Source of the DNA: an uncultured bacterium
GTDB lineage: Bacteria; Krumholzibacteriota; Krumholzibacteriia; Krumholzibacteriales; Krumholzibacteriaceae
DNA: 64,000 nt
Direction: 5' to 3'
NCBI GenBank assembly: GCA_963786935.1
Contig: CAWBAN010000001.1
Span: forward strand, 1,345,566-1,409,565
Position 1 is the first letter of the stretch, and each line of letters opens with the position of its first letter. Positions 121 through 57,680 of this stretch are shown here, piece by piece. A program made the translations under genes and the position numbers. Below the pieces are notes generated by a model, which searched no databases, was not told the origin of the DNA, and saw nothing but the letters and a program-made list of their open reading frames with translations.

Positions 121-888
121 CTACGGGCGGCGCCGCGGTTTCGAAAACGAGAGCAGCATCGCTTCGGTCGAAGTCTCGCGCGGGCGGGACGACGCGGGAG
201 CGCCTGCGCTCTCCGTGCGGCTCTTCTTCTCGACCGCGCTTCTCACGAGACCCCAGAGAGGAACGTCGCGGGAGATCCAGAGCCGGCTGCGCTCCTCCTC
301 GACCCGCCGCGCCGCCGTTCCGCCGAGATCCACGGTCTTCGTTTCGTTCCGCCAATACTCGGCCCCCTCGCACGCGAACGTCCCGGCCGGCACGGAGACG
401 CGCGCGGAGCCGAGCGGAGCGCGCGCGAACCGGTCGCCCGGACGGAGAAAGATCGATTCGATGTCCAGACGATCGAGCTCCTGCGCCGTCGGCGCACGGA
501 ACGCGCCGGTTCCCTCCTTGACGGCGACGTCGAGCAGGCAGGACCGGACCGCCTCGGGCGACGTCGCGGACATCACGCGCTCCGCGATCCGGAGCCGGAT
601 CGTGACGCTCTCCTTCTTCGAGCGCGGATAGGGGGACGTGACGACCTCGAGACGGAACGCCCCTCCCTTCCGGTCGAGAACGCGGAGCTCGACGTAGGAC
701 GAGTCGGCGGCGCCGAACGATTTCGAAACGACGAGATAGGAAACGCGGGCTCCCGGCTCGATGGAAAGGGCTTCGAGCGACATTCCCGGAACGAGAAAAT
801 CGACGCCGGCGGCGCGGGCGGCGGACGGCGCGAGCGCGGCGGCGGCCGCGACGACGATCGAAACGACGATATGCCGTATGCGGCTCAT
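121..888 (-). CDS. hypothetical secreted protein (N-terminal signal peptide MSRIRHIVVSIVVAAAAALAPSAARAAG); C-terminal ~40 aa look low-complexity, end uncertain
   Basis: Internal ATG at 886-888 of ORF 121..1239 is followed by a classical signal peptide; no recognisable catalytic motif. Confidence 0.45.
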   Translation of the reverse strand: MSRIRHIVVSIVVAAAAALAPSAARAAGVDFLVPGMSLEALSIEPGARVSYLVVSKSFGAADSSYVELRVLDRKGGAFRLEVVTSPYPRSKKESVTIRLRIAERVMSATSPEAVRSCLLDVAVKEGTGAFRAPTAQELDRLDIESIFLRPGDRFARAPLGSARVSVPAGTFACEGAEYWRNETKTVDLGGTAARRVEEERSRLWISRDVPLWGLVRSAVEKKSRTESAGAPASSRPRETSTEAMLLSFSKPRRRP

Positions 889-2300
889 AGGCCGTCCGCG
901 CGTCCGCAGTGAGGAACGCGGCTCCAGTACAGCTGATAATCGAAATCGGGGCTCCATTTCGACGTATGACACGTTCTGCACGACTGGCGCGCCGCGGACG
1001 CATAGGAGCCGTCCCGGGAATGCGCCGTGCCGGGACCGTGGCACGACTCGCACTGAACGCCGAGAAGATACGGAGCGCCCTCCTTCTCCGCGGCCGGATC
1101 GTATCCGCCCGGCCTCCGGTACCCGGTCGTGTGGCATGCGAGGCATTCCGGATTGGATTCCTGCCCGCGCTGGCGCAGCGTTTCGAAAGCGCGGAAATGC
1201 CTGCCGCCGACGAATCGGGGCATGAGATCGGCGTGGCATCGCCTGCAGATGTCCATGCCGAGATACCGATCGACGATCCTGCCCGTCGAGGCGTCGCGCG
1301 AGAGCGCCCGGCTGACCTGCAGCTCCCGCTGCTTCATCCGCTCCTCGGAACGGTACGCGGCGAGATCCCGCGCCGCGGCGGAATCGTCCGGCACGCTCGC
1401 GTCGAGACGGATCAGCGCGCTCTCCATGACTGCGGGGCCCTTCCCCCCGACGCCGGCGATGGTGACGAGCCCGAGATTCCTCCCGCGCTCCCCCGAGAAG
1501 AACACGGGAACGCCGCCGGGCTCGGACGCCGCCGACAGCGTATCGACGCAGCTCTCGCGCTCCCGTTCCCCCTCGCCGCCGTGCCCCCGGATGACGACGT
1601 CGATTCCCTCGAGCGACGGGAGAATCTCATGCAGCTTCTCCCGCCGCATATGGGCGAGCAGCACGACACAGTCGCACTGCCGGCGAAGCGCCGCGAGCGC
1701 CTCCCGCCCCTCGAGCGCCGGGTCGCGGACCTCGACGCCGTCGATATCGCGCGGCGCCTCGCCGAGGAGCGCCATGACGCCTACCGTGGCCCCGCCGACG
1801 CGCCTGATGACGAACGGCGGAAACATGCGCGCGCCGTTTTCGTAGAGATTCGCGCAGACGATCGGAAGCCCCGCCTCCGCGTGCGATTTGAGCGCGCGGG
1901 TTCCGTAGTTCAGATCCCGCTCGCCGACGGCCGCGGCGCCGAAGCCCGCGTCGATCATCGTGCGGACGAGAAACCGGGTCCGGTACATCTCGATGATGCC
2001 CGTTTCCCCAGAATAATCCCCCGCCGAGAGCAGGAGAAGCTGTGGATCGAGATTCCGGCGCTCCTTGATCGCGGTGGCCCGCCGGGCCACCCCGCCCGTG
2101 GCGTGGTCCCCTCAGCCGGCGGGAACGATCCAGCCCCGCTCGTCCCCGGCGAAAAGAATCGTCAGCGACGACTCCTCGCGGCAACCCGCGGCGAGCGCGA
2201 CGACGGCGGCCAGAACGAACAACATGATTCGCTTCATGGTTGAACTATAAATGGAAAGGGCAAAGAAAGCGAGCTTCCTTTGCCCCGGATCATTAGCCAT
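885..2300 (-). CDS. lipoprotein with 5'-nucleotidase/calcineurin-like metallophosphoesterase domain fused to C-terminal tetraheme cytochrome c domain; interrupted by in-frame TGA at 2112-2114
   Basis: ORFs 2112..2300 and 885..2090 are in the same frame, separated only by one TGA. The N-terminal piece carries the lipobox signal MKRIMLFVLAAVVALAAGC and SLTILFAGD. The body has GDYSGETG...GERDLNYG...IVCANLYENG...VVIRGHGGEG, a 5'-NT-like pattern with a degenerate GNHE. The C-terminus has four CxxCH motifs (CRRCH, CLACH, CESCHGPG..H, CRTCH), typical of paired-CXXCH multiheme cytochromes. Confidence 0.55.
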
Positions 2301-2756: not shown

Positions 2757-5700
2757 CTAGTAGCCGCTGTAGGAGGACTGGATTCCGCGCGTCCCGCGCT
2801 CGTACTTGATCTCGGGATGCGCTTTGATCCTGATTTCGAAGTAGTACCGCCAATCGCTCCCGGTTCTCTCGTGGACGAAGCTCGCGCTCCAGCAATGGAG
2901 GTCGCGCTCGAGCTGATACCGCTGCTGCGTGAAATCGCGCTCCTCGATGTTGTAATAGCCGTTGACGGTGAGCTTCCACCCGCGGGAGAGCTGCGCGGCC
3001 CCCGTGTACCTGAGATTGCTCTGCATCGTCCGCGGCGAGTTCTCGCTCCACGCCTCGCTCAGGTTGTATCCGACGCTGAGCGACCAGCCCGGCGATCCGC
3101 TCCCGCCGGACGGAATGAGGTCGGGGGACGGCGGCGGCGCGCCGCTCTTTTCGCCCTCGAGGGACGGCGCGATCCGCTCCCGCTCGGGCAACGCCCACAC
3201 GGCCGGGTAGGTCAGGGAGCCCCGCAGGGAGAAGTTGAAATTCATGCCGAAATCGTGCGACAGCATCTTGCCGCGGTACGGCGAGTACCTGCTGTTGAGG
3301 TTGAACGACATTAGATTGCCGATACGGAGCTGCGACCTGCTCGAGATATCCGAGAACGCCGTGCTCGCGGGGAGCTCGGGATTGTAGCTTCCGGAGACGT
3401 ACCAGGCGAGGACGTCGCTCGATTTCGTCTCTTTCCCGCCTCTCTTGAGCTTGAGATCGATCGAGTTGTCGACTCCCCACTGAAACGACTGGGACCGCCG
3501 CTGGTCATCGCTCAACTTCGGCGAGATGCCGTAGCGCACGCTCGGCGTCAACGTGTGGCGGAGGCCGACGAGCGACCCGATGCGCGGGTAGAAGGTCCCG
3601 TAGACCTTCGTGCTCATATCGGCGCCGAGGTTCATGGTGAACTCGTTCGTTTCCCGGGGACGGCTGGCCGGGCCGTAGAAGCTTTCGTAACCTTCGTTGA
3701 TCTTGTACGTGAGCAGCTTCGCGTACGCCCAGCCCATGTTGACGCTCGGATTGATCCCGAGGAATCCGAGGCGCACCTGCCGGTTGAATCCCATGCCGTA
3801 GCCGCTCGTCACCCGCGAGTAGCTGCGCGCCATGCTCTCCTCGCTCGTCACGGTCGCCGCTACCTTCGGCGTGAACAACACGCTCCCGAGGCCGCGCTCC
3901 CAGAGGCCCTGCGTCCCCGCCGCGTGCCGCTCGCCGAACCAGAGGGACCGCTGGGGAAAATTGAGCGAGAACGACGGCAGCGTCATCGAGACGCGGGGCT
4001 CCGTCGGGATGGTCACGTTGAGCTTCTGGTCGCGGGTCCCCGAGAGGCTGAGACTCGTCCCGTTCCAGCTTTTCCGGTAGCTGGCGGTCGAGTACACGCG
4101 CCGGTCGATGAACCGCGTGAGATCCTGCGCCTGGTCGACCGCCGATTGGGCCTGATCGCTGCTCACGAACTTGAGGTTGCTGGTGAGGCTCGCCGACGGC
4201 GAGAAGGTCTGATTGTGTCTCGACTCGAATATCCATTCGTTCGACGTGACGTACTTGCTCTGCGTGCCGCCGAACTGCCGCACGTAATCGAGCCGCGCCT
4301 CCCCGTCCAGCATATAGCGGATCGCGTAGTTGTTCACGAGGTGGAACCGGAGGCTCCGCCGTTCGTTGAAATCCCCCGTCAGGAGGAAGTCGGTGTATTC
4401 GTTCGTCGCCCAGTAGTAGCCGAGGCCCTGGACGAACCTCCCCTCGCGGCTCCCGAATCCGATGTCGACGTTCGGCTTGAGGAACCCCGAGGCGCGCGTG
4501 TGGCGGAGCGAGTTGACCATGAAGGGGAGGAAGAAGACCGGCATCTCCCCGATGTGGAGAAAGATCGGCCCCGTCACGATCTTGTCGTCGATGTACACCT
4601 TCATCCTGTTCGCGTGGAACGAGTAATGGGGATTGGTGTAATCGCACGTCGTGTAGGTCGAGTTGTAGACCTTGAGCACGTCCTCGCCGACCTTGAATAT
4701 GTGCTCCCCCTGATAGTATCCCTCGCCGTACTTCGTCGAGCCTTCGACGATCACGCCCCCCTCGGAATCGAGATCGTATCCCATGTCGTCGCCGAACATC
4801 TTCTGATCCTTCTCCTCGAGCACGGGAGCCCCCGTCGCCTCGAGCAGGTTGAGGCGCGAGTTGTAGTCGATCCGCTTGGCCGTCAGGCTCGAGTTCTGGT
4901 ACTTGAGATAGGCGCGGCCGTTGAGGAGAACGTTCTCGGTCGGCGCGAAGTACTCGATCCGGTCGGCGTTGTACTGGACGCGCTGGTTCGACTTCTCGAA
5001 GCTCTTGTACGTGAGCGAGCTGTCGATGGAGGCGGCGAGGCTGTCGATCGTCTCCTGCCGCGAGAGGTTGACGTACTTGTAGAGGCCGGTGGACGCCCCC
5101 GATATCTTGATGTAATCGAGCTCCCCCTCACGGAAGACGAAGAACATCCGGTCTCCGGTCGAGAAGTTGTTCGAGACCTTGGTCGAATCCCCCTCGATCG
5201 GGTAGTACATCGACTTCGCGTTCTTCTGGATGAGGACGGAATCGACGCGCTCGTTCGAGAGGTAGATGGCGATCGAGTCCCCCTCGATCCACGAGTCCTC
5301 CGTCCAGGGAGAACCCGGCCTCGGGGCGTCGGCGAGGCGGCCGGTTTCGGGGAGCACGATGCGCTCCACCTCGTCCTCGTTGTACCAGAGCAGCATCCGC
5401 TTGCCGCTCATGGACGAGGAGCCGTTCCGCGCCCGCGGATTGCCAGTGAGCTCCGCACGCTGCTCCGCGTCCCGGATGACGGCGGAATCGCAGCTCGCCC
5501 TCGTCTCTCCCTTCGCGATCTGCACGTCCCCCTCGGCGACGCCGATCTTCCGGTCGACGTCGAAGCGCATGATACGGCTCGTGACCGTCCCCCGCTCCTC
5601 CGATTTCAGGTCGAAGGTGAGAATGGGGCGATCGTCAACGACCGCTTCCTTCCCGATCCGGTCGAAGCGGGCGTGCCTGCCCGCGAGCGAATAGTCGTCG

Positions 5701-6271
5701 ACGTCGTCGATGATCACGACCTTGCCGGTGGCGTCCGCCGTCTCGCGGTCGCGGTTGTAGACGACCGTGTCGGCGTACATCGTGCGGGTGCTGTCCTGCG
5801 CGTTCACGTTGCCGGTCAGCACGGCGATCCGCCGGTCCCGGTCGTATTTCGCGCGGTCGCAGCGGGCCTTCCATCCGCGATCCGAGAATCGCACGCGGCC
5901 GACGAGCTCGAGCGTGTTCGTCAGGCCGAAATACTCGCCGACGTCGCTCGTCATCACCGCCGACCCGTCGATGACACGGACGCTGTCGTAGAGCACGATG
6001 TAGCGACGGAGGGGATAGTGCTTTCCGCGGGCGCTCGTCACCGTCGTCGTGGCGTGATCGATCCGAACGCCCCCCTCGAGGTATACGACGCGCTCCCCCC
6101 CTCGAAGCTCGACCGGAGCCGGGACGACGTCACGCGGTAGACGGCCGAGTCGGATGCCGCCTGCGCGATCTGTTCGCCCGGCCGCGGCGGCTCCTGGGAA
6201 TCCGCGCGCGGCGGCCCGGCGGCCCCGAGGAGACCGAGAGCGGCGAGCACGACGAATGCAGACTGCTTCAT
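2757..6271 (-). CDS. lptD: LPS-assembly outer membrane protein LptD (OstA-like N-terminal domain + large beta-barrel); apparent frameshift in N-terminal region
   Basis: The 1094-aa ORF has an OstA-like N-terminus (VLTGNVNAQDSTRTMYADTVVY) and a long beta-barrel-type C-terminus ending in an aromatic residue. The signal peptide MKQSAFVVLAALGLLGAAGP sits in ORF 6038..6373 in a different frame. The frames join at the C7 run at 6095-6101, and the body frame stays open up to 6311 with no start codon. Confidence 0.75.
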
Positions 6272-8752: not shown

Positions 8753-9589
8753 CTACGCGCCTTCGGGCCGCCGGAGAAACGCGGCGATGAGCGCGCCGAG
8801 CGAACGGGCGCCGGCCTCGCCGCCGGCGAGAACGTCCTCATGATCGGTTCGCCCGCCCGAGAGGGCGGCGGTGTCGTTCGTGATCCAGCTCAGGCAGGCG
8901 GCCTCGATTCGCAGGCGCCGGGCCGCGATCAGCTCGGGAAGCGACGACATCGACGCCGCATGAGCGCCCATGAACGCCGCCACCCGGGCTTCCGCCGCCG
9001 TTTCGTAGGTCGGCCCGCCCGTCCAGCAGAGGATTCCCTTCGCGAGCGGCACGCGCGCCTCGAGCGCCGCCCGTTCCAGCGCGGCCGAGAAGCCCGCCGA
9101 AACGAGGGATATCCCGCCGCTCCGCCCGGCCGGCCCGGGGAGGCCGCCGGGGGGCTCGCGGCCGAGGACGGCCCGCCCCCCCGAGGGAACGGCGACCACG
9201 TCGGTCGCGAGCATCCACGAACGCGTCCGCACCCGCCCCGAGAGGCTGCCCGCCGCGTTCGTCACGATGATGCGCGAGCAGCCCGCGCGCTTCGCGAGCG
9301 AGACGGGAGCGGCGAGCGTGTCCGCCCCCGCCCCTTCGTACGCGTGGAATCTCCCCGCGAAGAAGAGCACGGTCGAGCCCGCGAAGCGGCACAGCGACGC
9401 GAAGCCGGGATGCCCTTCGACGGACGTCCGCCCGAATCCGGGGATGCTTCCGTAGGGAACGCGGGCGAGCGATTCGACGCCGTCGAGGAGCTTCGAGAGA
9501 CCGCTCCCCAGAACGACGGCGCAGGAGGCCGCGCCGCGCATCTCGCGCAGCCGCTCAGCCGCCGAACCGGTATTCCATGATGATCGCAT
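8753..9589 (-). CDS. punA: purine nucleoside phosphorylase (trimeric PNP/PunA/MTAP family)
   Basis: VVLGSGLS...GHPGF...GRFHAYEG motifs. Confidence 0.8.
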   Translation of the reverse strand: MRSSWNTGSAAERLREMRGAASCAVVLGSGLSKLLDGVESLARVPYGSIPGFGRTSVEGHPGFASLCRFAGSTVLFFAGRFHAYEGAGADTLAAPVSLAKRAGCSRIIVTNAAGSLSGRVRTRSWMLATDVVAVPSGGRAVLGREPPGGLPGPAGRSGGISLVSAGFSAALERAALEARVPLAKGILCWTGGPTYETAAEARVAAFMGAHAASMSSLPELIAARRLRIEAACLSWITNDTAALSGGRTDHEDVLAGGEAGARSLGALIAAFLRRPEGA

Positions 9590-10007
9590 CTTCGTCCGTA
9601 TCGCTGTAGTACCGGCGCCGCGTGCCGACGTCGACGAATCCGTGCTTCCGGTAGAAGGCGCGCGCCGCCGCGTTCCCCTCGCGCACCTCGAGTATCACGC
9701 GGGCGGCCTCACGAAACCTTCCGCGCTCCATGACCGCCCCGAGCATCGCGCTCCCGAGACCGCTCCGGCGACGCGCGGGATCGACGGCGATGCTGAGCAG
9801 GTGGAGCTCGTCGCACGCCGCCCACGCGGCCGCGTAGCCGGCGACGGCGCCGTCGGCGACGAGCACGAGATTGATCGCCTGATCCTTGAACCTGATCTGG
9901 GACCTGAACATCCCCTCGGTCCACGGCGTCACGAAGCTCGCGCGTTCGATCTCCATGACGGGCGCGATGTCATCCGCGGCCATTTCGCGGATCTCCGGCG
10001 CGGTCAC
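9555..10007 (-). CDS. rimI: ribosomal-protein-alanine N-acetyltransferase (GNAT)
   Basis: GNAT core (ERASFVTPW...LHLLSIAVDPARRRSGLGSAML...FYRKHGF); GTG at 10005-10007 with SD GGGGGAGG, overlapping the tsaB stop (GTGA). Confidence 0.75.
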   Translation of the reverse strand: MTAPEIREMAADDIAPVMEIERASFVTPWTEGMFRSQIRFKDQAINLVLVADGAVAGYAAAWAACDELHLLSIAVDPARRRSGLGSAMLGAVMERGRFREAARVILEVREGNAAARAFYRKHGFVDVGTRRRYYSDTDEDAIIMEYRFGG

Positions 10008-10741
10008 GGCGGGCCTCCCCCGGATTTCCGGAGACGCGCGGTGTCGGGGAGGCGCGCGTCCGGCGGGCGGATGTAGAGCGGCTCGAGCGAAAAGAGCTCG
10101 CGGTACGGGATCGGCTCCCGTTCGAGCGCGAGCAGCGCGCACAGAGACGCCGAGGGCACCGCCCACCGCGCGGCCGCGAATCGGCTGCCGCGGGGAACGA
10201 TCGCCTCGAGCTCCGCCCGGTAGCGGAGCGCGCCGGTGCCGCACACGACGAGGGGGCGCGCCGCCGCGTGCCGTTCGAGGATGCCCCCGACCGCTTCCGG
10301 TTTCGCCGAGAACAGCGGCACGGTTTCACGCGGCGCGCCGGACGCCGTTTCGTAGAGCGCGCCGTACACCTCGCCGCGGCGGGCGTCGATGAGCGTGAGC
10401 ACGGGATCGGCCGCGTACGGGAACGCCGCGGCGAGCACCGCGCAGCTCTCGACGGGAACGACGGGAGCGCGGCGCACCGCCGCGAACGCCTTCACCGTCG
10501 CGAGCGCGATCCGCAGCCCCGTGAAACTGCCCGGGCCGCTCACGACCGCGAAGAGATCGACGTCGGCGAGCGCGATCTTCGCCGCGGAAATGCACGCGTC
10601 GACCCCCGGCAGCAGCGTCGCCGAATGCGTGTCGCTCGCGTCGAAGAGTATCTCCGCGAGCACTTCCTCGCCGCGGCACACCGCCGCGCTTCCGCGCCGG
10701 TGAGACGCGTCAAGCGCGAGCACGACCGGCGCCGTTTTCAC
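10004..10741 (-). CDS. tsaB: tRNA threonylcarbamoyladenosine biosynthesis protein TsaB (YeaZ)
   Basis: VLALDASHRRGSAAV...VVSGPGSFTGLRIALATVKAFA; GTG start overlaps the tsaE stop. Confidence 0.8.
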   Translation of the reverse strand: MKTAPVVLALDASHRRGSAAVCRGEEVLAEILFDASDTHSATLLPGVDACISAAKIALADVDLFAVVSGPGSFTGLRIALATVKAFAAVRRAPVVPVESCAVLAAAFPYAADPVLTLIDARRGEVYGALYETASGAPRETVPLFSAKPEAVGGILERHAAARPLVVCGTGALRYRAELEAIVPRGSRFAAARWAVPSASLCALLALEREPIPYRELFSLEPLYIRPPDARLPDTARLRKSGGGPP

Positions 10742-11277
10742 GCGATGCTCCTTTCGAGCGCGTCGAGGAAACCGCCCGGCGCTTCGATCGCGAGCCGGCG
10801 GCTCCGGTCGCCCGTTATCTCCATGACGATCCGCACGTCCGCGCCGAGGGCTTCGCCGGGAAGCCGATCCCCCCATTCGACGATCACGACGTTCCTGCCG
10901 TCGATGGCGTCGAAGAGGCCGATGCGCGCGACTTCGTCGACGCTCCCGAGCCGGTAGAGGTCGAAATGGAGCACGGGCAGGGCGCCCGCGTACTCCTCGG
11001 CGAGCACGAAGCTCGGGCTCGTCACCTCGTCGGAAACGCCGAGCCCGGCGCAGATGCCCTTCGCGATGAGCGTCTTCCCCGCGCCGAGCCCCCCCTCGAG
11101 CGAGAGCACGGCGCCGGGCGGCAGGAGCGCGCCGATCGAGCGTCCCGCCGCGAGCGTCCAATCGGGCGATTCGCTCGCGAACGCGGCGCGACGGCGCTCC
11201 CCTTCGAAGCGATCGAGGCGCCGTCCCGTCGCTCCCCCGTCCTCTTCCGATTCGCGCCGGCCGGGACGCGGAGGCAT
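10738..11277 (-). CDS. tsaE: tRNA threonylcarbamoyladenosine biosynthesis ATPase TsaE (YjeE)
   Basis: GGLGAGKTLIAKGICAGLG...SPSFVLAEEY...HFDLYRL. Confidence 0.8.
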   Translation of the reverse strand: MPPRPGRRESEEDGGATGRRLDRFEGERRRAAFASESPDWTLAAGRSIGALLPPGAVLSLEGGLGAGKTLIAKGICAGLGVSDEVTSPSFVLAEEYAGALPVLHFDLYRLGSVDEVARIGLFDAIDGRNVVIVEWGDRLPGEALGADVRIVMEITGDRSRRLAIEAPGGFLDALERSIA

Positions 11278-11280
11278 GGC

Positions 11281-12834
11281 CTACCTCGGGGTGAGGGTGA
11301 CGCACGGGATGATCATCTCGTCGAGTGAGATGCCTCCGTGCTGAAACGTTCCCATGTACTGCCGCTCGTACTCGTGGAATTTCGTCGGGTAGACGAAGTA
11401 GAAATTCTCCTTCGCGAGGATGTAGTTCTTGGCGGGGCCCTCCGCGGGAAGGTTGTACTCGTTCGGTTTGCGGATGAGCAGCGTCTGCCGCGGATCGCCG
11501 TTGATGTTTTCGCCGAATTTGTACCTGAGGTTCGTCGAGGTGTCCCGGTTCCCGTGCACGAGGCTCGCCCGCGCGCCGAGGATCGAGCCGTGATCGGTCG
11601 TGATGACCACGGTCGCGCCGTGCTTCGAGATCCGCTGGAGGATGTCGAAGAGCGCCGAATGAACGAACCACGAGCGCATGAGCGACCGGAAGGCGCTCTC
11701 GTCGGGGGCGATCTCCTGCAGAATTTCGCTCTGGCTGCGGCCGTGCGCGAGGATATCGAGAAAATTGAACACCATGGACACGAGATCGATCTTCCGGTAG
11801 CTGTCGACCTGCTTGCGGATCTCGTTCGCCTCCTCGATCTCGTAGATCTTGATGTACTTCGTCGCCACGCCGGGGAAACCCGCCCGGCCGAGCTGCTCCT
11901 GCAGGAAAACGGACTCGAACCGGTTCTTGCTGAACTCGTCCTTCGACCGCTCGAGCCATTGCTCCGGCGTGCGCCGCTGGATCTCGGACGGAAATGCGCC
12001 CGCGAAGATCGCGTTCCGCGCGTACGGCGTCGCGGTCGGCAGGATGGAGTAGTAGCACTCCCGCTCGATGTTGTACGAGGGCGCCAGCAGATCCTCGATC
12101 TTGAGCCACTGGTCGTACCGCATGCAGTCGATGAGGATGAAGTAGACCTTCTTCCCTGCCTTGAGGTGCGGGAGCACCCAGCGCTTGATCACGTCGACGC
12201 TCATCGGCGGCCGCTCCGCGCCGCGCATCCATTCCGGGTAGACACGCTCGATGTAGCGGGCGAAATCGGCGTTCGACTTCTTCCTGAGATCCTGCTGCGT
12301 CTGCTCGAGCCCCGTCGCGCTGAAGCGGTCGAACTCGACGTCCCAGAGGGAGAGCTCCTGATGGATATCGATCCAGCCGCGCCAGTCGGGGCTCGCGTGA
12401 AGCTTCCCGTCGATCCGCTGGTACGCCTGCAGGTAATCCTTGCTGAGCACGGTTTCCTGGATACGGTGCGCGTCGAGGATACGCTTCGCGGCCGAATAGA
12501 TCTGGAGGGGATTCACCGGCTTGAGGAGGTAGTCGTCGATCTTCATGCCGATGGCCTGCTCGACGAGGCCTTCCGCCTCGTTCTTCGTGATCATGATGAC
12601 GGGCAGGTTCGAATCGATCTCCTTGATCTCCTGCAGCGTCTCGAGCCCGCTCTTGCCGGGCATCGTCTCGTCGAGGAGCACGAGATCGAACCGCCCGCGT
12701 TTGAGCGCGGCGATGCCTTCGTCCCCGCTCGAGGCGGACGTCACCGCGTACCCCTTCTCCCCGAGAAAGATGATGTGGGAGTTCAGGAGATCGATTTCAT
12801 CGTCGACCCAGAGAATCCGCTTTTCTTTCGCCAT
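11281..12834 (-). CDS. response regulator with N-terminal REC domain and C-terminal PglZ (alkaline-phosphatase-like) domain, PorX-like
   Basis: RILWVDDEIDLL...DLVLLDETMPGKSG...DYLLKP is a CheY-like receiver with the phospho-acceptor Asp. The remaining ~380 aa have PglZ-type architecture (YFILIDCMRYDQW, TTDHGS). Confidence 0.8.
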   Translation of the reverse strand: MAKEKRILWVDDEIDLLNSHIIFLGEKGYAVTSASSGDEGIAALKRGRFDLVLLDETMPGKSGLETLQEIKEIDSNLPVIMITKNEAEGLVEQAIGMKIDDYLLKPVNPLQIYSAAKRILDAHRIQETVLSKDYLQAYQRIDGKLHASPDWRGWIDIHQELSLWDVEFDRFSATGLEQTQQDLRKKSNADFARYIERVYPEWMRGAERPPMSVDVIKRWVLPHLKAGKKVYFILIDCMRYDQWLKIEDLLAPSYNIERECYYSILPTATPYARNAIFAGAFPSEIQRRTPEQWLERSKDEFSKNRFESVFLQEQLGRAGFPGVATKYIKIYEIEEANEIRKQVDSYRKIDLVSMVFNFLDILAHGRSQSEILQEIAPDESAFRSLMRSWFVHSALFDILQRISKHGATVVITTDHGSILGARASLVHGNRDTSTNLRYKFGENINGDPRQTLLIRKPNEYNLPAEGPAKNYILAKENFYFVYPTKFHEYERQYMGTFQHGGISLDEMIIPCVTLTPR

Positions 12835-12856
12835 GCGATCCGATCCGTTTCCCCGC

Positions 12857-14098
12857 TCAGTCGACCGGGAAGGTGATGAGAAACGTCGCTCCTCTGCCGG
12901 GCTGCGACTCGAGCACCTTGATCGTGCCGCCGTGGATATCCTCGACGATGCGCTTCACGAGGGAAAGCCCGAGACCCCAGCCGCGGCTCTTCGTCGTGAA
13001 TCCCGGCGAGAAGACGCGCTTGCGCACCCCGGGGCTCATGCCCTTCCCGTTGTCGCTGAAGCGAATCTCGACGCGGCGGTCGCGCTCGTTCATCCGGCAC
13101 TGGATGTGAATCTTCCCCTCGTCCCCCGAGGTCGCGTCGAGCGAATTCTTGATCATGTTCTCGAGCACCCAGCCGATGAGCTCCGCGCTGCACCGGATGA
13201 GGGGAAGCTCGTCCGACTCGGTCGTGATCGTCGAATTGATCTTGAGCGACGGACGCCGCCGCTCGAAGTAACGCACCGTCTCGTCGACGATCGGGGCGAG
13301 CTCGCGCAGCTCGAGTTTCGGCGCCGATCCGATCTTGCTGAAGCGCGCGGAGATCTTGCTCAGCCGGTCGACGTCCGTTTCGACCTCGTCGATCGCCATC
13401 GAGAGCTTCTCCGAACCGCGCGAGGCTGTGAGCTCTTCGCGTATCATGGCGATCCATCCCATGATCGAGGAGAGCGGCGTGCCGAGCTGATGGGCCGTCT
13501 CCTTCGCCATGCCCACCCAGATCGACCGCTGCTCTCCGCTCTTCACGGCGCGGAAGCCGAGGAATCCGAAGAGGACGAAGACCCCGAAGACGCCGATCTG
13601 GACGTACTGCGCGACGGCGAGCTCCCGCGAGAGCGACGACGGGCCGTAATGGAGCACCGCCCGCAGCTTCTCCGACTCGATCGACACCGGCTCGTTCACG
13701 CGGTCGTACGCGATCGCCTTCCGCTGGACCTTTTCGAGCAACGAGTCGTTCGGCGCGGCGGGATCGTAGCCGATCAGCCGGCCGTACTCGTCCGGACCGA
13801 GCGGGGGGATCCCGATCTGCTGATTCCAGATCATCGGCCTGCCCGCGGCGTCGGTGATGATGAACGGCGCGTTCAGGTCGCGGAGCGTCTCGCGAATGAA
13901 TTCGATGCTGCCCCGGTCGTCGAGCCGGTCGATCTGCAGTCCGATGAAGCGGGCATACTGGCTCGTCGTCCGCGCGGACTGCGCTTTCATCTTCTTGATG
14001 ATGCCGTTATTGTACACGAGGGCGAACGCGACGACGATGACGCTGCCCGCGATGATATACACCTTGAGGAGAAACGGAAAATTGCGTGGCGCCCTCAT
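12857..14098 (-). CDS. sensor histidine kinase (2 TM, HisKA + HATPase_c), cognate of the PorX-like regulator
   Basis: H-box ETAHQLGTPLSSIMG and N/G boxes (ENMIKNSLDAT...DNGKGM...GWGLGLSLV); ATG at 14096-14098 chosen to avoid overlap with serS. Confidence 0.8.
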   Translation of the reverse strand: MRAPRNFPFLLKVYIIAGSVIVVAFALVYNNGIIKKMKAQSARTTSQYARFIGLQIDRLDDRGSIEFIRETLRDLNAPFIITDAAGRPMIWNQQIGIPPLGPDEYGRLIGYDPAAPNDSLLEKVQRKAIAYDRVNEPVSIESEKLRAVLHYGPSSLSRELAVAQYVQIGVFGVFVLFGFLGFRAVKSGEQRSIWVGMAKETAHQLGTPLSSIMGWIAMIREELTASRGSEKLSMAIDEVETDVDRLSKISARFSKIGSAPKLELRELAPIVDETVRYFERRRPSLKINSTITTESDELPLIRCSAELIGWVLENMIKNSLDATSGDEGKIHIQCRMNERDRRVEIRFSDNGKGMSPGVRKRVFSPGFTTKSRGWGLGLSLVKRIVEDIHGGTIKVLESQPGRGATFLITFPVD

Positions 14099-14105
14099 GG
14101 TTCGA

Positions 14106-15377
14106 TCAGGCCTCGAGGTATTCCCTGCCCCCCAGGTAGGGGACGAGGGCACGGGGGACGCGGACCTTGCCGGTCGGCGTCTGGTTGAGCTCGAGGATCG
14201 TCGCGATGACCCGCGGGAGCGCGAGCCCCGAGCCGTTCAGCGTATGCACGAACTCGGGCTTCTCGTTCGGCCGCCGCTTGAAACGGATGTTCGCGCGGCG
14301 CGCCTGAAAATCCTCGAAGTTGCTGCATGATGAAACCTCGAGCCAGCGTCCCATCGCGGGCGCGAACGTCTCGAGGTCGTAGCACTTCGCGGCGCCGAAG
14401 CTCATATCCATCGTGCAGAGCTCGATGACGCGATGGGGAATTTCGAGTGCCTCGAGCACGGCGGTCGCGTCGCGGGTGAGCGATTCGAGCTCCTCGTACG
14501 ACGACTCGGGGTGCGCGAGCTTCACCATCTCGACCTTGTCGAACTGATGCACGCGCACGAGCCCCTTCGTGTCCTGCCCGTAGCTCCCCGCTTCGCGGCG
14601 GAAGCACGGGCTGAACGCGGTGAGCTTGACCGGCATGCGCGCGGCGTCGAGCACGGCGCCGCGGTACATGTTGGTGAGCGGCACTTCCGCGGTCGGAATG
14701 AGGAACAGATCGTCCTTTTCGCTGTGGTACATGTCTTCGGCCAGCTTCGGGAGCTGTCCCGTGCCGATCATGCAGTCGCGATTCACGAGGTACGGCACCG
14801 AAACCTCCTCGTACCCCTGCGCGCGATGCAGGTCGATCATGAAGTTGACGAGCGCCCGCGACAGATGCGCGCCCTCGCCGCGAAGCACGACGAAGCCCCT
14901 GCCGCTCAGGCAGCTGCCGGTGGCGACGTCGAGGATCCCGAGCTTCTCGCCGATATCCCAGTGCGGGAGGATGCCGTCGAACGGCTCGGGAACCGCCCCC
15001 CAGGACCGCCGCACCACGTTGTGATCCGGGCAGGTCCCGTACGGCGCCGACTCGTGGGGAAGATTCGGGATGAGGAGCGCCTGCTCGTCGATCCGCGCGC
15101 CGAGCTCCTTGAGCTCCGCGTCGATTTCCTTGATCCGGTCGGAGGACCGTTTCATCCGAGCGAGAATCTCGGTCGCGTCGCGGTTCTCCTTCTTGAGGCG
15201 CGATATCTCCTGTGAAGCCTCGTTGCGCTCGTGTTTGAGCGTTTCCGTCTCCTGAATGAGCGCGCGCAGCTTCTCGTCGAGCGCGATGAACGCGTCGAGA
15301 TCGAACGACGAGCCCTTTCGCCTGAGGCCCTCCCGCACCCGTTCGGGATCTTTTCGAATGAGTTTCCGGTCGAGCAT
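14106..15377 (-). CDS. serS: seryl-tRNA synthetase
   Basis: Full-length class II aaRS with SerS motifs (TAEVPL, FSPCFRREAGS, GSGLALPR). Confidence 0.95.
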   Translation of the reverse strand: MLDRKLIRKDPERVREGLRRKGSSFDLDAFIALDEKLRALIQETETLKHERNEASQEISRLKKENRDATEILARMKRSSDRIKEIDAELKELGARIDEQALLIPNLPHESAPYGTCPDHNVVRRSWGAVPEPFDGILPHWDIGEKLGILDVATGSCLSGRGFVVLRGEGAHLSRALVNFMIDLHRAQGYEEVSVPYLVNRDCMIGTGQLPKLAEDMYHSEKDDLFLIPTAEVPLTNMYRGAVLDAARMPVKLTAFSPCFRREAGSYGQDTKGLVRVHQFDKVEMVKLAHPESSYEELESLTRDATAVLEALEIPHRVIELCTMDMSFGAAKCYDLETFAPAMGRWLEVSSCSNFEDFQARRANIRFKRRPNEKPEFVHTLNGSGLALPRVIATILELNQTPTGKVRVPRALVPYLGGREYLEA

Positions 15378-17656: not shown

Positions 17657-19122
17657 TCATTTCCCGACGGGAAGCAGGCTTCTCGCGCGCCGCAGGTCGT
17701 CTTTCCCGATGACCCGCAGGGCGCACAGCATCGCGGCGAATCCCCCCAGCAGAGCGAACCGGTGCCAGAGCTCGAGCCCGACGCGGTAGTGCAGGTAGTA
17801 GTAGACGAGTCCGGTGACGATGACGGTCGCCAGAATCCTCGCGAGCTTCCCGAACTCGTAGGCGACCGGATATATCCTGCGCGTGACGAGGAAGAGCGAG
17901 ACGGCCATGGTAACATAGCTGGCCAGCACGGCGAGCGCGGCTCCCATGATTCCCAGCCGCGGGATCAGCAGAAGGTTGGCCGCCACGTTGACCAGCGCGC
18001 CCGCCCCGGTCACCAGGGGGAAGTACTTCGTCTTTTCCTCTATATATATCCCGGCCTGCAGGTTGACGTAGATGCCGTTGAAAAGATAGGCCAGCAGGAT
18101 GACCGGCACCACGACGAGCCCGGGAAGGAAATGCCCTTCGATGAGCGTCCGTCCGGCGGCGTATTCGAGGGAAGCGATGTCGTCGATGAACAGGGAAACG
18201 ACGACCCAGAGCACGCTCGCGGCCAGGACGAACAGCGTCATGATCGTGGCGAACATCTCCTTGGCGTTCTTCTCCCGGGCGTTGTTCAGGAAGAACGGCT
18301 GCCAGGCGTACTGGAACATGGAAACCACGAGCATCATGAAAATGCCGAGCTTGTGCCCGGTCTGGTACAGCCCGAGCGTGTCGGCGTCGGTCAAGGCCAG
18401 GACGATCGGGCGATCGATGACCTGCACCATCATCGATGCCAGGCTGGCCGGCAGATAGGGCAGGCCGAAGCGCAGCATCTGTCGCAGCTGAAATCCTTGG
18501 ATCCGGAAGCACAGCCTCGGCCAGATCTCCGGCAGGAGCGCGAGGAACGTCACGGCGGAGGCGATCAGATTGGCGACGAAAATGGCCTCGATGCCCAGGT
18601 GGAACGTGATGAAGAACAGGAGGTTCAATCCGAGGTTGAGCAGGATGTTGCACGAGCTTGATGGCGGCGAATTTGCTTCGCCTTCCGCTCCAGGCGCAGA
18701 TTGGCGAAGGGTATCAACGCCGCGGTGTCGAAGAGCAGGATGAAGATGACGTAGAAGACCAGCTTGCGGTACAGGCCGGGGACGGCCATCAGCTGCCGAA
18801 GGGCGCGCGCAGCACCAGCAGCAGCGCGGTGAGGGCCACGGTCGACAGGACGACGAACAGGTAGGCCGTCGAAAACACTCTGTTTCTTCTGCTCCGGGAC
18901 GGCCAGCGAGCTGTATTTCATGAACGCGGCGTCCATCCCGTAAATGTAGACGATGTTCAGGAACGCCAGGTACGCGTAGATGTTGGCGTAGACGCCCATG
19001 TCGGCGGGCGAGATGAAATGGGTATAGAACGGAACGAGCAGAAAGCCGAGGAAACGGCCCACGATGGTGGAAATGCCGTAGATCGCCGTGTCCCTGGTCA
19101 GCTCCTTGATCTTTTCACGCAT
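17657..19122 (-). CDS. Wzx-like polysaccharide flippase (MOP superfamily), reading frame disrupted at several points
   Basis: Two ORF pieces (18625..19122, 17657..18628) are both polytopic and Wzx-like. An alternative frame between ~18780-18870 encodes the TM-like STAYLFVVLSTVALTALLLVL, indicating multiple small indels. Confidence 0.5.
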
Positions 19123-19157
19123 GTTTCCCGCCGGGGATTGGCCGATCCGTCGCGCGA

Positions 19158-20250
19158 TCAGGCCGGGAACTGCCGTTCGAGAACGTCGGCGATCCGCTCC
19201 GCGGTCCTCCCGTCCCAGAGGGGCGGAACGCGATGGGGGCGCGCGGGACCCGCGAGAATGCGCGCCGCCTCGTCACGGATCGCGCCGGGATCGGATCCGA
19301 CGAGAACGTTCGTGCCGATCTCGACCGTGATCGGCCGCTCGGTGTTCTCGCGCACCGTGATGCACGGCACGCCGAGCACCGTCGTCTCTTCCTGGATGCC
19401 GCCCGAATCGGTGATGACGATGCGCGCGTGGCGCATCGCCTTGACGAAATCGAGGTAGCCGAGCGGCTCGATGAGCTTCAGCCCGTCGGGAATCTCGACC
19501 GCGCCGCGCGACGAATCGATCGTTTTGCGCGTCCGCGGATGGACCGGAAAGATCACGGGAGATCGAGCGCGAGAGCCCGGCGAGCGCCTCCATGATGCCG
19601 GCGAACACCCCTCCCTCGTCGACGTTGGACGGCCGGTGCAGCGTGACGAGCACGTATCCGCCGGGAGCGGCGCCGAGATCATCGAGCGCGCGGGAGCGCT
19701 CCGCCTTCTCGAGGTAGAACAGGAGCGAATCGATCATGATGTTGCCGACGAAAAAGATCCGCTCGGGCCCCACTCCCTCGCGCAGCAGATTCGTCTCCGC
19801 TTCCGGAGAGGTCGTGAAACAGTAGCGCGAGAGGATATCGGTGACCATGCGGTTGATCTCCTCGGGCATCGCGAGATCGAAGCTCCGGAGCCCCGCCTCG
19901 ACGTGGGCGACGGGGACGAGCGCCTTCGCCGCGACGAGCGAGCATGCCAGGGTCGAGTTCACGTCCCCGACGACGATGATGAGATCGGGACGCTCGCGCG
20001 CGACGACCGCTTCGAACGCGATCATGATCCGCGCGGTTTGCTCCGCGTGGGATCCGGAGCCGACGCCGAGATGAATATCGGGCTCGGGAAGCTCGAGATC
20101 GTGGAAGAAGACCCGCGACATGTTCTCGTCGTAGTGCTGCCCCGTATGGATCAGCGTGCATTCGAAGCGGCCGCGCTTCCGGAACTCGCGGATGAGCGGC
20201 GCCGCCTTCATGAAATTCGGGCGGGCGCCGACGATGACGGTCGCCTTCAC
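19158..20250 (-). CDS. wecB: UDP-N-acetylglucosamine 2-epimerase (non-hydrolysing); single-base frameshift near 19568-19570
   Basis: N-terminal piece VKATVIVGARPNFMKAAPL...HTGQHYD and C-terminal piece PVIFPVHPRTRK...DSGGIQEE lie in different frames; restoring one C gives the conserved DLPVIFPVHP; GTG start with SD AGGAGA, GTGA overlap with rfbB. Confidence 0.75.
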
Positions 20251-27676: not shown

Positions 27677-28488
27677 TCCTCCCACTCCTCCCAGGCGATA
27701 TCGGCCGCGTCGAAGACCGTGCCGTCGCCGCATACGGTCCGGAGCGCCGTCGATCCCCCGGCCTTGACGGGGACGACACAGCCGCGGCACGCGCCGACGC
27801 CGCACGCCATGACCGACTCGAGCGACGTGTAATGGGCCCGGAACGCGCCCCGAACCGCGTCGTCGAGCGCGCGGACCATGCCGCGCGGCCCGCACGAGTA
27901 GAGCGTTCCGGCGGGGAGGCGCTTTTCGCGGACGAGCGCGCGGCAGAGCGCTACGACATCCCCGTGAAATCCCGACGAGCCGTCGAGGGTGGCGAACGAG
28001 CGCGAGGAAAATTCCTTCTTCACGAGATCGCCGAGCAGCTCGGCGCGGTTCGCGGCGCCGTAGAGCATGATGATTCTCCCCGCGACGCCCTTCCGGCGCC
28101 ACGCGCGGGCGGCGAAGAGGAGCGGCGCGAGCCCGGTTCCCCCCGCGACGAAAACGGCGGGCGCCCCGGCCGGCTCGGGAAACGAGGACCCGCCGAGCGG
28201 GCCCATGATGTCGAGCGTATCGCCGGGCTTCCGCGCGGCGATCGCCGTCGAGCCGCGGCCGATGACCTTGACGAGGAGCGAGAGCGTTCTCGGCGAGCAA
28301 TCCATGACGCTGTACGGACGCCGCAGGAGCGGCACCGGCGAATCGGAAACCCGTATCGAGACGAACTGACCGGGCCGCGCGTCGGGAAAACCGTCCGGGC
28401 GTTCGAGCACGAGCAGGGCGCAGGACGGGGAAAGCCGCGCGTTTCTCTTGAGCACGGCGTTGAAACAGCCTCTGCGATCCCGCTTCAT
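27673..28488 (-). CDS. pyrK: dihydroorotate dehydrogenase electron transfer subunit
   Basis: FAD/NAD-binding fold (RPYSV, GGTGLAP) and C-terminal 2Fe-2S cluster Cys (CGVGACRGC...C). Confidence 0.85.
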   Translation of the reverse strand: MKRDRRGCFNAVLKRNARLSPSCALLVLERPDGFPDARPGQFVSIRVSDSPVPLLRRPYSVMDCSPRTLSLLVKVIGRGSTAIAARKPGDTLDIMGPLGGSSFPEPAGAPAVFVAGGTGLAPLLFAARAWRRKGVAGRIIMLYGAANRAELLGDLVKKEFSSRSFATLDGSSGFHGDVVALCRALVREKRLPAGTLYSCGPRGMVRALDDAVRGAFRAHYTSLESVMACGVGACRGCVVPVKAGGSTALRTVCGDGTVFDAADIAWEEWEE

Positions 28489-52357: not shown

Positions 52358-52569
52358 GGCGATCAAGGCCTCCTTCCGGGTGCATCCGCCGGCCGGGGAC
52401 GGGTCGCTTCGCATATTGCAACGGCCCACTGCCCTCCCCCCGACGCACCGGCGCAACTTTACACCTAACTGCACCATTTATCAACAATTAAAGAGGCGGC
52501 AAAAAAAGAGGGGGACTGGTACGCATTTCGCTCTCTATTGAATTGGAATACTTTACGCCGGAGTACCAT

Positions 52570-56430: not shown

Positions 56431-56455
56431 CTCAATCCGGAGGAGAGGTGTACCC

Positions 56456-57655: not shown

Positions 57656-57680
57656 CGCGGCGAACGGAGCGATCGGCGAG

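What the first reader, a model, noticed from the sequence alone, without database searches (positions are those of the whole stretch)
11281..14098. Adjacent PorX/PorY-like two-component system (REC-PglZ regulator next to its kinase)
The regulator combines a CheY-like receiver with a PglZ alkaline-phosphatase-fold domain, the architecture of the Bacteroidota type IX secretion regulator PorX. In Porphyromonas gingivalis, PorX and its kinase PorY are encoded at separate loci. Here a histidine kinase sits immediately upstream in the same transcriptional direction, suggesting a cognate pair. In a high-GC lineage this may mark T9SS-like or gliding regulation outside Bacteroidota, or a different output for the PglZ phosphodiesterase domain.
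Basis: partly seen in the sequence, partly recalled or inferred. Interest (0 to 1): 0.55.

Follow-up and report, generated by a model that had tools for sequence, protein, structure and literature searches.

The report
Linked PorY-PorX two-component genes
This bacterium, from the little-studied phylum Krumholzibacteriota, carries true counterparts of the PorY sensor kinase and PorX regulator side by side, whereas the gum pathogen Porphyromonas gingivalis keeps them far apart; this is an ordinary member of a known system with an informative gene order.

Summary
On the minus strand, a 413-aa histidine kinase (12857-14098) ends 22 nt before a 517-aa REC-PglZ regulator (11281-12834).

- **PorX:** the regulator matches NCBIfam equivalog NF052313 at 637.7 bits (cut-off 300). 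It aligns end to end with solved PorX structures (E about 1e-127). Every phospho-acceptor, zinc-binding and nucleophile residue is kept.
- **PorY:** the kinase aligns full length with P. gingivalis PorY (34% identity, E 6e-69), sensor domain included. It scores 291 bits on a profile built only from Bacteroidota PorY; unrelated kinases score 78 or less.
- **Lineage:** Krumholzibacteriota, which I recall being placed in the FCB superphylum.
- **Gene order:** serS-porY-porX-tsaE recurs in Eisenbacteria, Zixibacteria and some MAGs labelled Ignavibacteria; porY-porX alone recurs in Poribacteria. In all, 17 of 72 testable loci have porY upstream. None of the MAGs labelled Balneolales, Rhodothermales, Cytophagia or Bacteroidota does.
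- **Not shown:** the 64-kb window holds no T9SS core gene and no cargo with a T9SS sorting domain. The T9SS link is therefore inferred, not tested.

Verdict: a new member of a known kind. The gene linkage gives independent support that PorY is PorX's cognate kinase. Interest is modest.

The parts
14106..15377 (-). serS (seryl-tRNA synthetase), immediately upstream of the kinase with a 7-nt gap
   Evidence: Pfam tRNA-synt_2b 135.6 bits and Seryl_tRNA_N 101.9 bits. Junction sequence. serS lies upstream of porY in 15 of 17 linked loci.
12857..14098 (-). porY orthologue: 413-aa sensor histidine kinase
   Evidence: BLASTP against P. gingivalis PorY BAG34519.1: 34% identity, E 6e-69, residues 9-411 against 15-389. 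Scores 291 bits on an HMM built from 10 Bacteroidota PorY. HisKA and HATPase_c present.
13997..14080 (-). PorY transmembrane helix 1 (about residues 7-34)
   Evidence: Kyte-Doolittle 19-residue windows above 1.6 start at residues 6-16.
13622..13996 (-). PorY periplasmic sensor domain (about residues 35-159), PDC/sCache-like fold
13541..13621 (-). PorY transmembrane helix 2 (about residues 160-186), joined to the DHp helix with no HAMP domain
   Evidence: Hydropathy peak at windows starting 159-168. H203 lies only about 17 residues after the helix, and Pfam finds no HAMP.
13490..13492 (-). Codon of PorY H203, the predicted autophosphorylation site in the motif KETAHQLGTPLSS
   Evidence: Motif position. 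The motif is near-invariant from P. gingivalis to this lineage.
11281..12834 (-). porX orthologue: 517-aa REC, three-helix bundle and PglZ/alkaline-phosphatase-fold regulator
   Evidence: NCBIfam NF052313 T9SS_RR_PorX equivalog, 637.7 bits (cut-off 300), residues 6-517 on model positions 2-513 of 513. PDB PorX 8ted and 7pv7, E about 1e-127, end to end.
12670..12672 (-). Codon of PorX D55, the receiver phospho-acceptor (equivalent to P. gingivalis D58)
   Evidence: Ungapped alignment to 7pv7, positions, residue roles from PMC9757075. D11, D12, T83, Y102 and K105 are also kept.
12028..12030 (-). Codon of PorX T269, the PglZ catalytic Thr (equivalent to P. gingivalis T272) in the motif LPTATPYAR
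   Evidence: The residues D236, D360, H364, D414, H415 and H499, plus R273 and N357, match P. gingivalis D239, D361, H365, D415, H416, H500, R276 and N358, which PMC9757075 lists as metal-coordinating or nucleotide-binding.
10738..11277 (-). tsaE/ubK homologue, starting 3 nt after the porX stop codon
   Evidence: Pfam TsaE 107.3 bits. Junction. tsaE lies downstream of porX in 67 of 79 loci. UbK1 is encoded downstream of porX in P. gingivalis and phosphorylates PorX in vitro (PMC13241743).
10004..10741 (-). tsaB, whose start overlaps the tsaE stop by 4 nt
   Evidence: NCBIfam TIGR03725, 146.9 bits (cut-off 69.3). Junction.
9555..10007 (-). rimI-like GNAT acetyltransferase, the next gene in the same direction
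   Evidence: Pfam Acetyltransf_1 63.6 bits. Gene table of the identical Logan contig L001.

Best explanation
This is a genuine PorY-PorX two-component system in a Krumholzibacteriota bacterium. It sits in a tightly packed, co-directional gene row: hemC-serS-porY-porX-tsaE-tsaB-rimI.

Shown here:
- PorY has two transmembrane helices around a periplasmic sensor domain of about 125 residues with a PDC/Cache-like fold. The second helix runs straight into the DHp helix that carries H203, followed by an intact ATP-binding domain.
- PorX has a complete receiver site (D11, D12, D55, T83, K105).
- PorX has a complete two-zinc phosphodiesterase site (D236, T269, D360, H364, D414, H415, H499).
- PorX keeps the PglZ dimer-interface serines (S384, S388).

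Inferred from work on P. gingivalis and F. johnsoniae:
- A periplasmic signal makes PorY autophosphorylate on H203 and pass the phosphoryl group to PorX D55.
- Phospho-PorX dimerises, which switches on zinc-dependent cleavage of short linear or cyclic oligonucleotides.
- Dimerisation also lets PorX act on partner proteins: in Bacteroidota these are the T9SS motor protein PorL and an ECF sigma factor. This adjusts type IX secretion.

The 22-nt spacing and the conserved gene order suggest that the two genes are co-transcribed here. The unlinked 'orphan' state in P. gingivalis is then one side of a deep split in gene order.
For: - PorX equivalog hit: 637.7 bits against a cut-off of 300, full length.
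- End-to-end alignment to solved PorX from F. johnsoniae and P. gingivalis, E about 1e-127.
- All functional residues named in PMC9757075 are conserved.
- The kinase is 34% identical to P. gingivalis PorY over its full length, E 6e-69, including the periplasmic domain.
- A profile of 10 Bacteroidota PorY scores the porX-adjacent kinases at 256-353 bits. Other kinases in the same loci score 78 bits or less.
- porY lies upstream of porX in 17 of 72 testable loci, labelled Krumholzibacteriia, Eisenbacteria, Zixibacteria, Poribacteria and some Ignavibacteria. Of these, 15 of 17 share serS upstream, so the arrangement is inherited rather than assembled repeatedly.
- Gene junctions are 7, 22, 3 and -4 nt. 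No promoter-like or minus-strand terminator-like site lies between serS and rimI.
- The sensor-domain model has pLDDT 86, and its best fold matches are the sensor domains of WalK and CusS.
- PorY-to-PorX phosphotransfer is shown biochemically in P. gingivalis (PMC4800418).
Against: - No T9SS core gene (gldK/L/M/N, sprA, porV, porU) and no protein with a T9SS C-terminal sorting domain was found in the 64-kb window.
- I found no paper that links Krumholzibacteriota to T9SS. The secretion output is therefore extrapolated.
- The genes sit among translation-related housekeeping genes rather than secretion genes.
- Co-transcription is inferred from spacing only. The promoter scan covers sigma-70-type sites, which may not apply to this lineage.
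- In P. gingivalis a porY deletion has a weaker phenotype than a porX deletion (PMC8050853). PorX may therefore have further inputs.
Confidence: 0.8

Rival explanations
1. The pair is an orthologous PorY-PorX system, but in this lineage its output is not type IX secretion. It would instead control a general envelope or nucleotide-signalling response. That response would be tied to the housekeeping genes it travels with (serS, tsaE/ubK, tsaB, rimI), for instance by degrading short oligoribonucleotides or through cross-talk with the TsaE/UbK ATPase-kinase.
For: No T9SS gene lies within 64 kb. The porX-tsaE adjacency is kept in 67 of 79 loci across many phyla. UbK1 phosphorylates PorX in vitro, and its authors argue for PorX roles beyond T9SS (PMC13241743). 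F. johnsoniae PorX has only modest effects on secretion.
Against: The protein passes an equivalog-level model named for the T9SS regulator. According to PMC10951265, a comparative genomic study found that porX and porY co-occur with T9SS genes. The UbK1 target Tyr79 is Asn76 here. Absence from one 64-kb window says little about a genome of several megabases. tsaE-tsaB-rimI is a common housekeeping cluster, so the adjacency may be historical.
Confidence: 0.17
2. The kinase and the regulator are neighbours by accident, and the kinase signals to a different response regulator.
For: Adjacency alone does not prove pairing. PorX in P. gingivalis is suspected of receiving input from other kinases.
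Against: The adjacency is conserved in 17 loci from at least five differently labelled lineages, with gaps mostly under 50 nt and overlapping genes in Poribacteria. The kinase is orthologous to the very kinase shown to phosphorylate PorX. The DHp helix after the His and the PorX receiver helix alpha-1 are both highly conserved with P. gingivalis. No other response regulator is encoded nearby.
Confidence: 0.02
3. The PglZ protein belongs to a BREX-type phage-defence system.
For: Domain-level PglZ matches: NCBIfam BREX_PglZ_3 at 90.9 bits and PADLOC PglZ at 75.6 bits.
Against: The score is far below the BREX cut-off (90.9 against 250) and covers only the shared C-terminal domain. The N-terminus is a receiver domain. 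No pglX, brxA/B/C/L or any other defence gene lies nearby. The PorX model scores seven times higher.
Confidence: 0.01

Closest known systems
PorX (PGN_1019) of Porphyromonas gingivalis and PorX of Flavobacterium johnsoniae (PDB 7PV7, 7PVA, 7PVK, 8TED, 8P6F)
   Same: Same length (517 aa here; the solved PorX chains are 520-540 residues). Same REC, three-helix-bundle and PglZ architecture. E about 1e-127 over the full length. All receiver, zinc-binding, nucleophile and dimer-interface residues are identical. A tsaE/ubK gene follows directly downstream, as in P. gingivalis.
   Different: The host is Krumholzibacteriota rather than Bacteroidota. The cognate kinase gene lies immediately upstream instead of at a distant locus. 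The UbK1 phosphosite Tyr79 is Asn76. A link to T9SS is not demonstrated here.
PorY (PGN_2001) of Porphyromonas gingivalis and its Bacteroidota orthologues
   Same: Same topology: TM, periplasmic domain, TM, DHp, CA, with no HAMP domain. Similar size (413 against 395 aa). The H-box KETAHQLGTPxSS and the C-terminal RGWGLGLSL motif are near-identical. The sensor domain is homologous.
   Different: Encoded next to porX, behind serS. The sensor domain has diverged (few invariant residues) and carries a short lineage-specific insert near residues 100-115. Its ligand is unknown; in P. gingivalis the CTD protein PorA is reported as the ligand (PMC12152298).
BREX PglZ proteins
   Same: They share the PglZ alkaline-phosphatase-fold domain and its metal ligands.
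   Different: BREX PglZ proteins give only domain-level, sub-threshold matches here, cover only the C-terminal PglZ part of this protein, and belong to multi-gene defence loci that are absent here.

Membership tests
PorX (NCBIfam NF052313, T9SS response regulator signal transducer) | Whole-protein score above the curated equivalog cut-off, with full-length coverage | tested here: met
   637.7 bits against a cut-off of 300; residues 6-517 on model positions 2-513 of 513.
PorX (NCBIfam NF052313, T9SS response regulator signal transducer) | N-terminal CheY-like receiver with the Asp-Asp, Asp, Thr and Lys active site and the Thr/Tyr switch pair | tested here: met
   D11, D12, D55, T83, K105 and Y102 align without gaps to P. 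gingivalis D14, D15, D58, T86, K108 and Y105.
PorX (NCBIfam NF052313, T9SS response regulator signal transducer) | C-terminal PglZ/alkaline-phosphatase-fold domain with two-zinc ligands, a catalytic Thr and dimer-interface serines | tested here: met
   D236, T269, D360, H364, D414, H415 and H499, plus R273, N357, S384 and S388, match P. gingivalis D239, T272, D361, H365, D415, H416, H500, R276, N358, S385 and S389.
PorX (NCBIfam NF052313, T9SS response regulator signal transducer) | Zinc-dependent phosphodiesterase activity and phosphorylation-induced dimerisation | not testable with these tools
   Needs biochemistry. Only residue conservation was shown.
PorX (NCBIfam NF052313, T9SS response regulator signal transducer) | [quoted passage not shown] | tested here: inconclusive
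   No T9SS core gene or CTD cargo lies in the 64-kb window. The only hint is a TPR lipoprotein with a sub-threshold PorW/SprE match (76 against 250 bits), which fits YbgF better.
PorY sensor histidine kinase | Full-length homology to experimentally characterised PorY, well separated from other kinases | tested here: met
   BLASTP E 6e-69 over residues 9-411. PorY-only HMM gives 291 bits against 78 or less for other kinases. The best generic NCBIfam kinase model reaches only 128 bits, and only on the catalytic half.
PorY sensor histidine kinase | Two transmembrane helices around a periplasmic sensor domain, then DHp and CA with no cytoplasmic HAMP or PAS domain | tested here: met
   Hydropathy peaks at residues 7-34 and 160-186; H203 lies 17 residues after TM2; Pfam finds only HisKA and HATPase_c. 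The sensor-domain model has a PDC-like fold.
PorY sensor histidine kinase | Phosphotransfer to PorX | not testable with these tools
   Supported indirectly by conserved gene linkage in 17 loci and by biochemistry in P. gingivalis (PMC4800418).
BREX PglZ (phage defence) | Score above the BREX PglZ model cut-off and presence of BREX partner genes | tested here: not met
   NF033449 scores 90.9 bits against a cut-off of 250. PADLOC gives domain-level hits only. No BREX gene lies in the window.

The most novel reading that the evidence does not exclude
serS-porY-porX-tsaE-tsaB-rimI may be an ancient operon of the non-Bacteroidota FCB lineages. In it, PorXY signalling would be functionally coupled to the TsaE/UbK ATPase-kinase and to translation-related housekeeping. 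PorX's oligonucleotide phosphodiesterase would serve a general stress or nucleotide-signal role. Control of type IX secretion, and the separation of porY from porX, would then be later specialisations of the Bacteroidota branch.
Probability: 0.15. Interest if true: 0.6.

Novelty: new member of a known kind. Interest (0 to 1): 0.35.

Why it matters
In P. gingivalis the PorX and PorY genes are unlinked 'orphans'. Because a porY deletion is milder than a porX deletion, some authors doubt that PorY is PorX's main kinase. A conserved porY-porX gene pair in several other phyla is independent comparative evidence that the two proteins form a cognate pair. It also offers organisms in which the pair is presumably co-expressed, which would make stoichiometry and signalling easier to study. 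The near-universal porX-tsaE/ubK adjacency extends a neighbourhood so far reported only within P. gingivalis strains. Finally, public records for this lineage call these proteins only 'response regulator' or 'PglZ domain-containing protein', so the PorXY assignment improves annotation. It also predicts a T9SS in Krumholzibacteriota, which can be checked directly on complete genomes.

Tried and rejected
- **T9SS genes in the window.** I scanned about 50 predicted proteins covering most of the 64 kb with Pfam and selected ones with NCBIfam. None was a T9SS core gene or carried a Por_Secre_tail domain. A few stretches with ambiguous gene calls (about 6.0-7.3, 26.8-28.5, 49.1-51.3 and 59.7-61.6 kb) were only inspected as ORF lists.
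- **Reaching the rest of the genome.** The exact PorX sequence lies on a 1.59-Mb public contig, but the look-up returned only a 5.7-kb Logan contig. T9SS presence in the genome therefore stays untested.
- **Literature.** Searches for Krumholzibacteriota together with T9SS or secretion found nothing. Two broad multi-phylum searches were uninformative.
- **BREX/defence reading.** Rejected on scores and context.
- **Regulatory RNA or tRNA near the operon.** No Rfam family and no tRNA in the window.
- **Promoter and terminator scan.** No more hits than in shuffled sequence, so it neither supports nor contradicts an operon.
- **P. gingivalis porY neighbourhood.** I tried to see whether serS flanks porY there, but the stored annotation file was cut before PGN_2001.
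- **Ancestral gene order.** A midpoint-rooted neighbour-joining tree places all linked loci in one half but cannot say which arrangement is ancestral.
Full report
**What is there.** The window is GC-rich (63-73%), and real genes are recognisable by GC3 of 0.8-0.9. Both genes of the finding lie on the minus strand. ORF 11281-12834 encodes a 517-aa protein with a Response_reg domain (residues 7-115, E 2.3e-24) and a PglZ domain (228-419, E 1.2e-20). ORF 12857-14098 encodes a 413-aa protein with HisKA and HATPase_c domains. The stated coordinates run exactly from the regulator's stop codon to the kinase's Met start. That start is supported by many homologues of 411-418 aa that cover 100% of the query.

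**The regulator is PorX.** It matches the NCBIfam equivalog NF052313, 'T9SS response regulator signal transducer PorX', at 637.7 bits against a curated cut-off of 300, over the full length of both protein and model. It aligns end to end with the crystallised PorX proteins of F. johnsoniae (8TED, 8P6F) and P. gingivalis (7PV7, 7PVK) at E about 1e-127. The alignment to P. gingivalis PorX has no gaps across the receiver domain. I mapped the residues that Schmitz et al. (PMC9757075) describe.
- Receiver site: D11, D12, D55, T83, K105 and the switch Tyr Y102 correspond to D14, D15, D58, T86, K108 and Y105.
- Nucleotide contacts R273 and N357 and the dimer-interface serines S384 and S388 are also kept.
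- BREX-type PglZ models match only at domain level (90.9 bits against a cut-off of 250; PADLOC 75.6 bits). No defence genes lie nearby.

**The kinase is PorY.** No curated PorY model appeared among the NCBIfam hits. The best generic kinase model (AtoS) reached 128 bits, and only on the catalytic half. I therefore took PorY sequences from the supplement of PMC7323717.
- BLASTP against P. gingivalis PorY (BAG34519.1) gives 34% identity and E 6e-69 over residues 9-411 against 15-389. This covers the transmembrane and periplasmic parts as well.
- An HMM built only from ten Bacteroidota PorY sequences scores the window kinase at 291 bits. It scores every kinase found next to porX in related loci at 256-353 bits. 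All other kinases in those loci score 78 bits or less.
- The H-box KETAHQLGTPLSS and the RGWGLGLSL motif are almost invariant. In the sensor domain P78, D83 and Y151 are conserved in at least 90% of sequences.
- Hydropathy places transmembrane helices at about residues 7-34 and 160-186. H203 lies 17 residues after the second helix, so there is no HAMP domain, despite that word in some public names.

**Lineage.** Kinase homologues at 81% identity and PorX homologues at 85% identity are named Candidatus Krumholzibacteria or Krumholzibacteriaceae. The closest species-level genome is CP070727.1, 'bacterium bin44', with 73% PorX identity. The NCBI taxonomy lists Krumholzibacteriota as a separate phylum. 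Its placement in the FCB superphylum is from my own knowledge. Public names for these proteins in this lineage are generic: 'response regulator', 'PglZ domain-containing protein' or 'bifunctional response regulator/alkaline phosphatase family protein'.

**Context and conservation.** The genes sit in a tight co-directional row:
- hemC, 4 nt, serS
- serS, 7 nt, porY
- porY, 22 nt, porX
- porX, 3 nt, tsaE
- tsaE overlaps tsaB by 4 nt, and rimI follows.

No promoter-like site and no minus-strand terminator-like site falls between serS and rimI. The scan is weak evidence, and its hit counts do not exceed those in shuffled sequence.

Among the 80 species-level loci that encode the closest PorX relatives, 72 have enough upstream flank to test. 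In 17 of these a PorY-family kinase lies upstream on the same strand.
- In 13 the gap is under 200 nt, and in the two Poribacteria loci the genes overlap.
- In three loci an ORF-bearing insert of 0.9-1.9 kb separates the two genes.
- In 15 of the 17, serS also lies upstream of porY.

The linked loci are labelled Krumholzibacteriia, Eisenbacteria, Zixibacteria, Poribacteria, several 'Ignavibacteria' MAGs and some unclassified MAGs. None of the loci labelled Balneolales, Rhodothermales, Cytophagia, Bacteroidota, Kapaibacteria, Chlorobiota, Cloacimonadota or Calditrichaceae has a kinase within the available flank. In a midpoint-rooted neighbour-joining tree of PorX, all linked loci fall in one half and P. 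gingivalis and the Bacteroidota proper fall in the other. The linkage is therefore inherited and phylogenetically coherent. Which state is ancestral cannot be decided without an outgroup. MAG labels are as deposited and may be wrong; one linked locus is labelled 'Limnocylindria'.

**How it most likely works.** Shown here: a complete kinase with an extracytoplasmic PDC-like sensor; a complete receiver; a complete two-zinc PglZ active site; and conserved gene linkage. Inferred from published work: PorY autophosphorylates and transfers the phosphoryl group to PorX (PMC4800418). Phosphorylation or zinc binding dimerises PorX and activates cleavage of linear and cyclic oligonucleotides (PMC9757075; PMC11320123). 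PorX then acts through PorL and the SigP cascade on T9SS genes. Co-transcription of porY and porX here is inferred from the spacing.

**What could not be shown.** The window holds no T9SS core gene and no protein with a T9SS sorting domain. One TPR lipoprotein (28485-30074) has a sub-threshold PorW/SprE match (76 against 250 bits) but passes the YbgF model (129.8 against 90.1). I could not reach the rest of the genome, and I found no paper linking Krumholzibacteriota with T9SS. T9SS genes are reported in other FCB phyla (PMC11285876; PMC12398890), so a T9SS here is plausible but untested. The main rival is that the same orthologous pair has a broader or different output in this lineage. I give that about 0.17.

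**Comparison with what is known, and novelty.** The literature treats porX and porY as unlinked orphan genes (PMC4800418, PMC10951265, PMC11320123). It also notes that a porY deletion is milder than a porX deletion, which has prompted proposals of other kinases for PorX. The conserved linkage found here is independent support for the cognate pairing. I did not find it described in the papers searched. The proteins themselves are ordinary orthologues with unchanged architecture and active sites. This is a new member of a known kind with an informative gene order, not a new system. Interest is modest (0.35).

**Seen in passing.**
- The porX-tsaE adjacency holds in 67 of 79 loci. A 2026 paper reported it only within P. 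gingivalis strains and showed that UbK1, the tsaE-family protein, phosphorylates PorX Tyr79. That Tyr is Asn76 here.
- An unrelated gene at 885-2237(-) has an in-frame TGA followed by a strong hairpin. It matches the 'UshA-like (seleno)protein' family below the cut-off.

Noticed in passing
window 10738-11277(-), and loci L003-L081: A tsaE/ubK homologue starts 3 nt after the porX stop. The same porX-tsaE adjacency holds in 67 of 79 testable loci across many phyla, whereas it had been reported only within P. gingivalis strains (PMC13241743). The window TsaE keeps the Walker A (GAGKT), SPS, HFDLYR and EW motifs. The UbK1 target Tyr79 of P. gingivalis PorX is Asn76 here.
   Followed up: partly
window 885-2237(-), TGA at 2112-2114: A gene for a UshA-like 5'-nucleotidase fused to a multihaem cytochrome is interrupted by an in-frame TGA (…IVPAG-TGA-GDHATGG…). 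The 70 nt from the TGA fold at -32.8 kcal/mol, with a GC-rich hairpin downstream of the TGA. NCBIfam 'UshA-like (seleno)protein' scores 193 bits without read-through and 228 bits with it (cut-off 275). This is a candidate selenocysteine codon.
   Followed up: partly
L004 1970-3010; L005 4430-5309; L007 4060-5979: In three relatives, a 0.9-1.9 kb insert separates porY from porX. It carries a small ORF in at least two of them; L005 was not inspected. The L007 ORF (4610-5368) has a signal-peptide-like start and, judged by eye, dockerin-like repeats. Function unknown.
   Followed up: no
L012, L013, L017, L022, L024, L028, about 5 kb downstream of porX: A second, unrelated histidine kinase (53-78 bits on the PorY profile) recurs at the same relative position in six linked loci, three labelled Ignavibacteria-type and three unclassified.
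   Followed up: no
window 28485-30074(-): A 529-aa TPR lipoprotein passes the YbgF/CpoB model (129.8 against 90.1 bits). It also has a sub-threshold match to the T9SS lipoprotein PorW/SprE (76 against 250 bits, TPR region only). This is the only T9SS-flavoured hit in the window.
   Followed up: partly
window 52543-58922(+): Three consecutive genes of unknown role: a 1295-aa all-TPR protein, a 430-aa TPR protein that looks coiled-coil-rich by eye, and a 413-aa protein with a C-terminal FHA domain. This looks like a signalling or assembly module.
   Followed up: no
window 17657-20250(-): A polysaccharide-export (flippase-like) gene appears split into two ORFs (17657-18628 and 18625-19122). The UDP-GlcNAc 2-epimerase ORF (19158-19682) matches only the C-terminal third of its Pfam model. 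These may be frameshifts or assembly errors.
   Followed up: no
window 2757-6041(-): A 1094-aa outer-membrane protein matches Pfam LptD_2 (PF19838), which I recall as a Bacteroidota-type LptD family; if so, it fits an FCB-type cell envelope.
   Followed up: no
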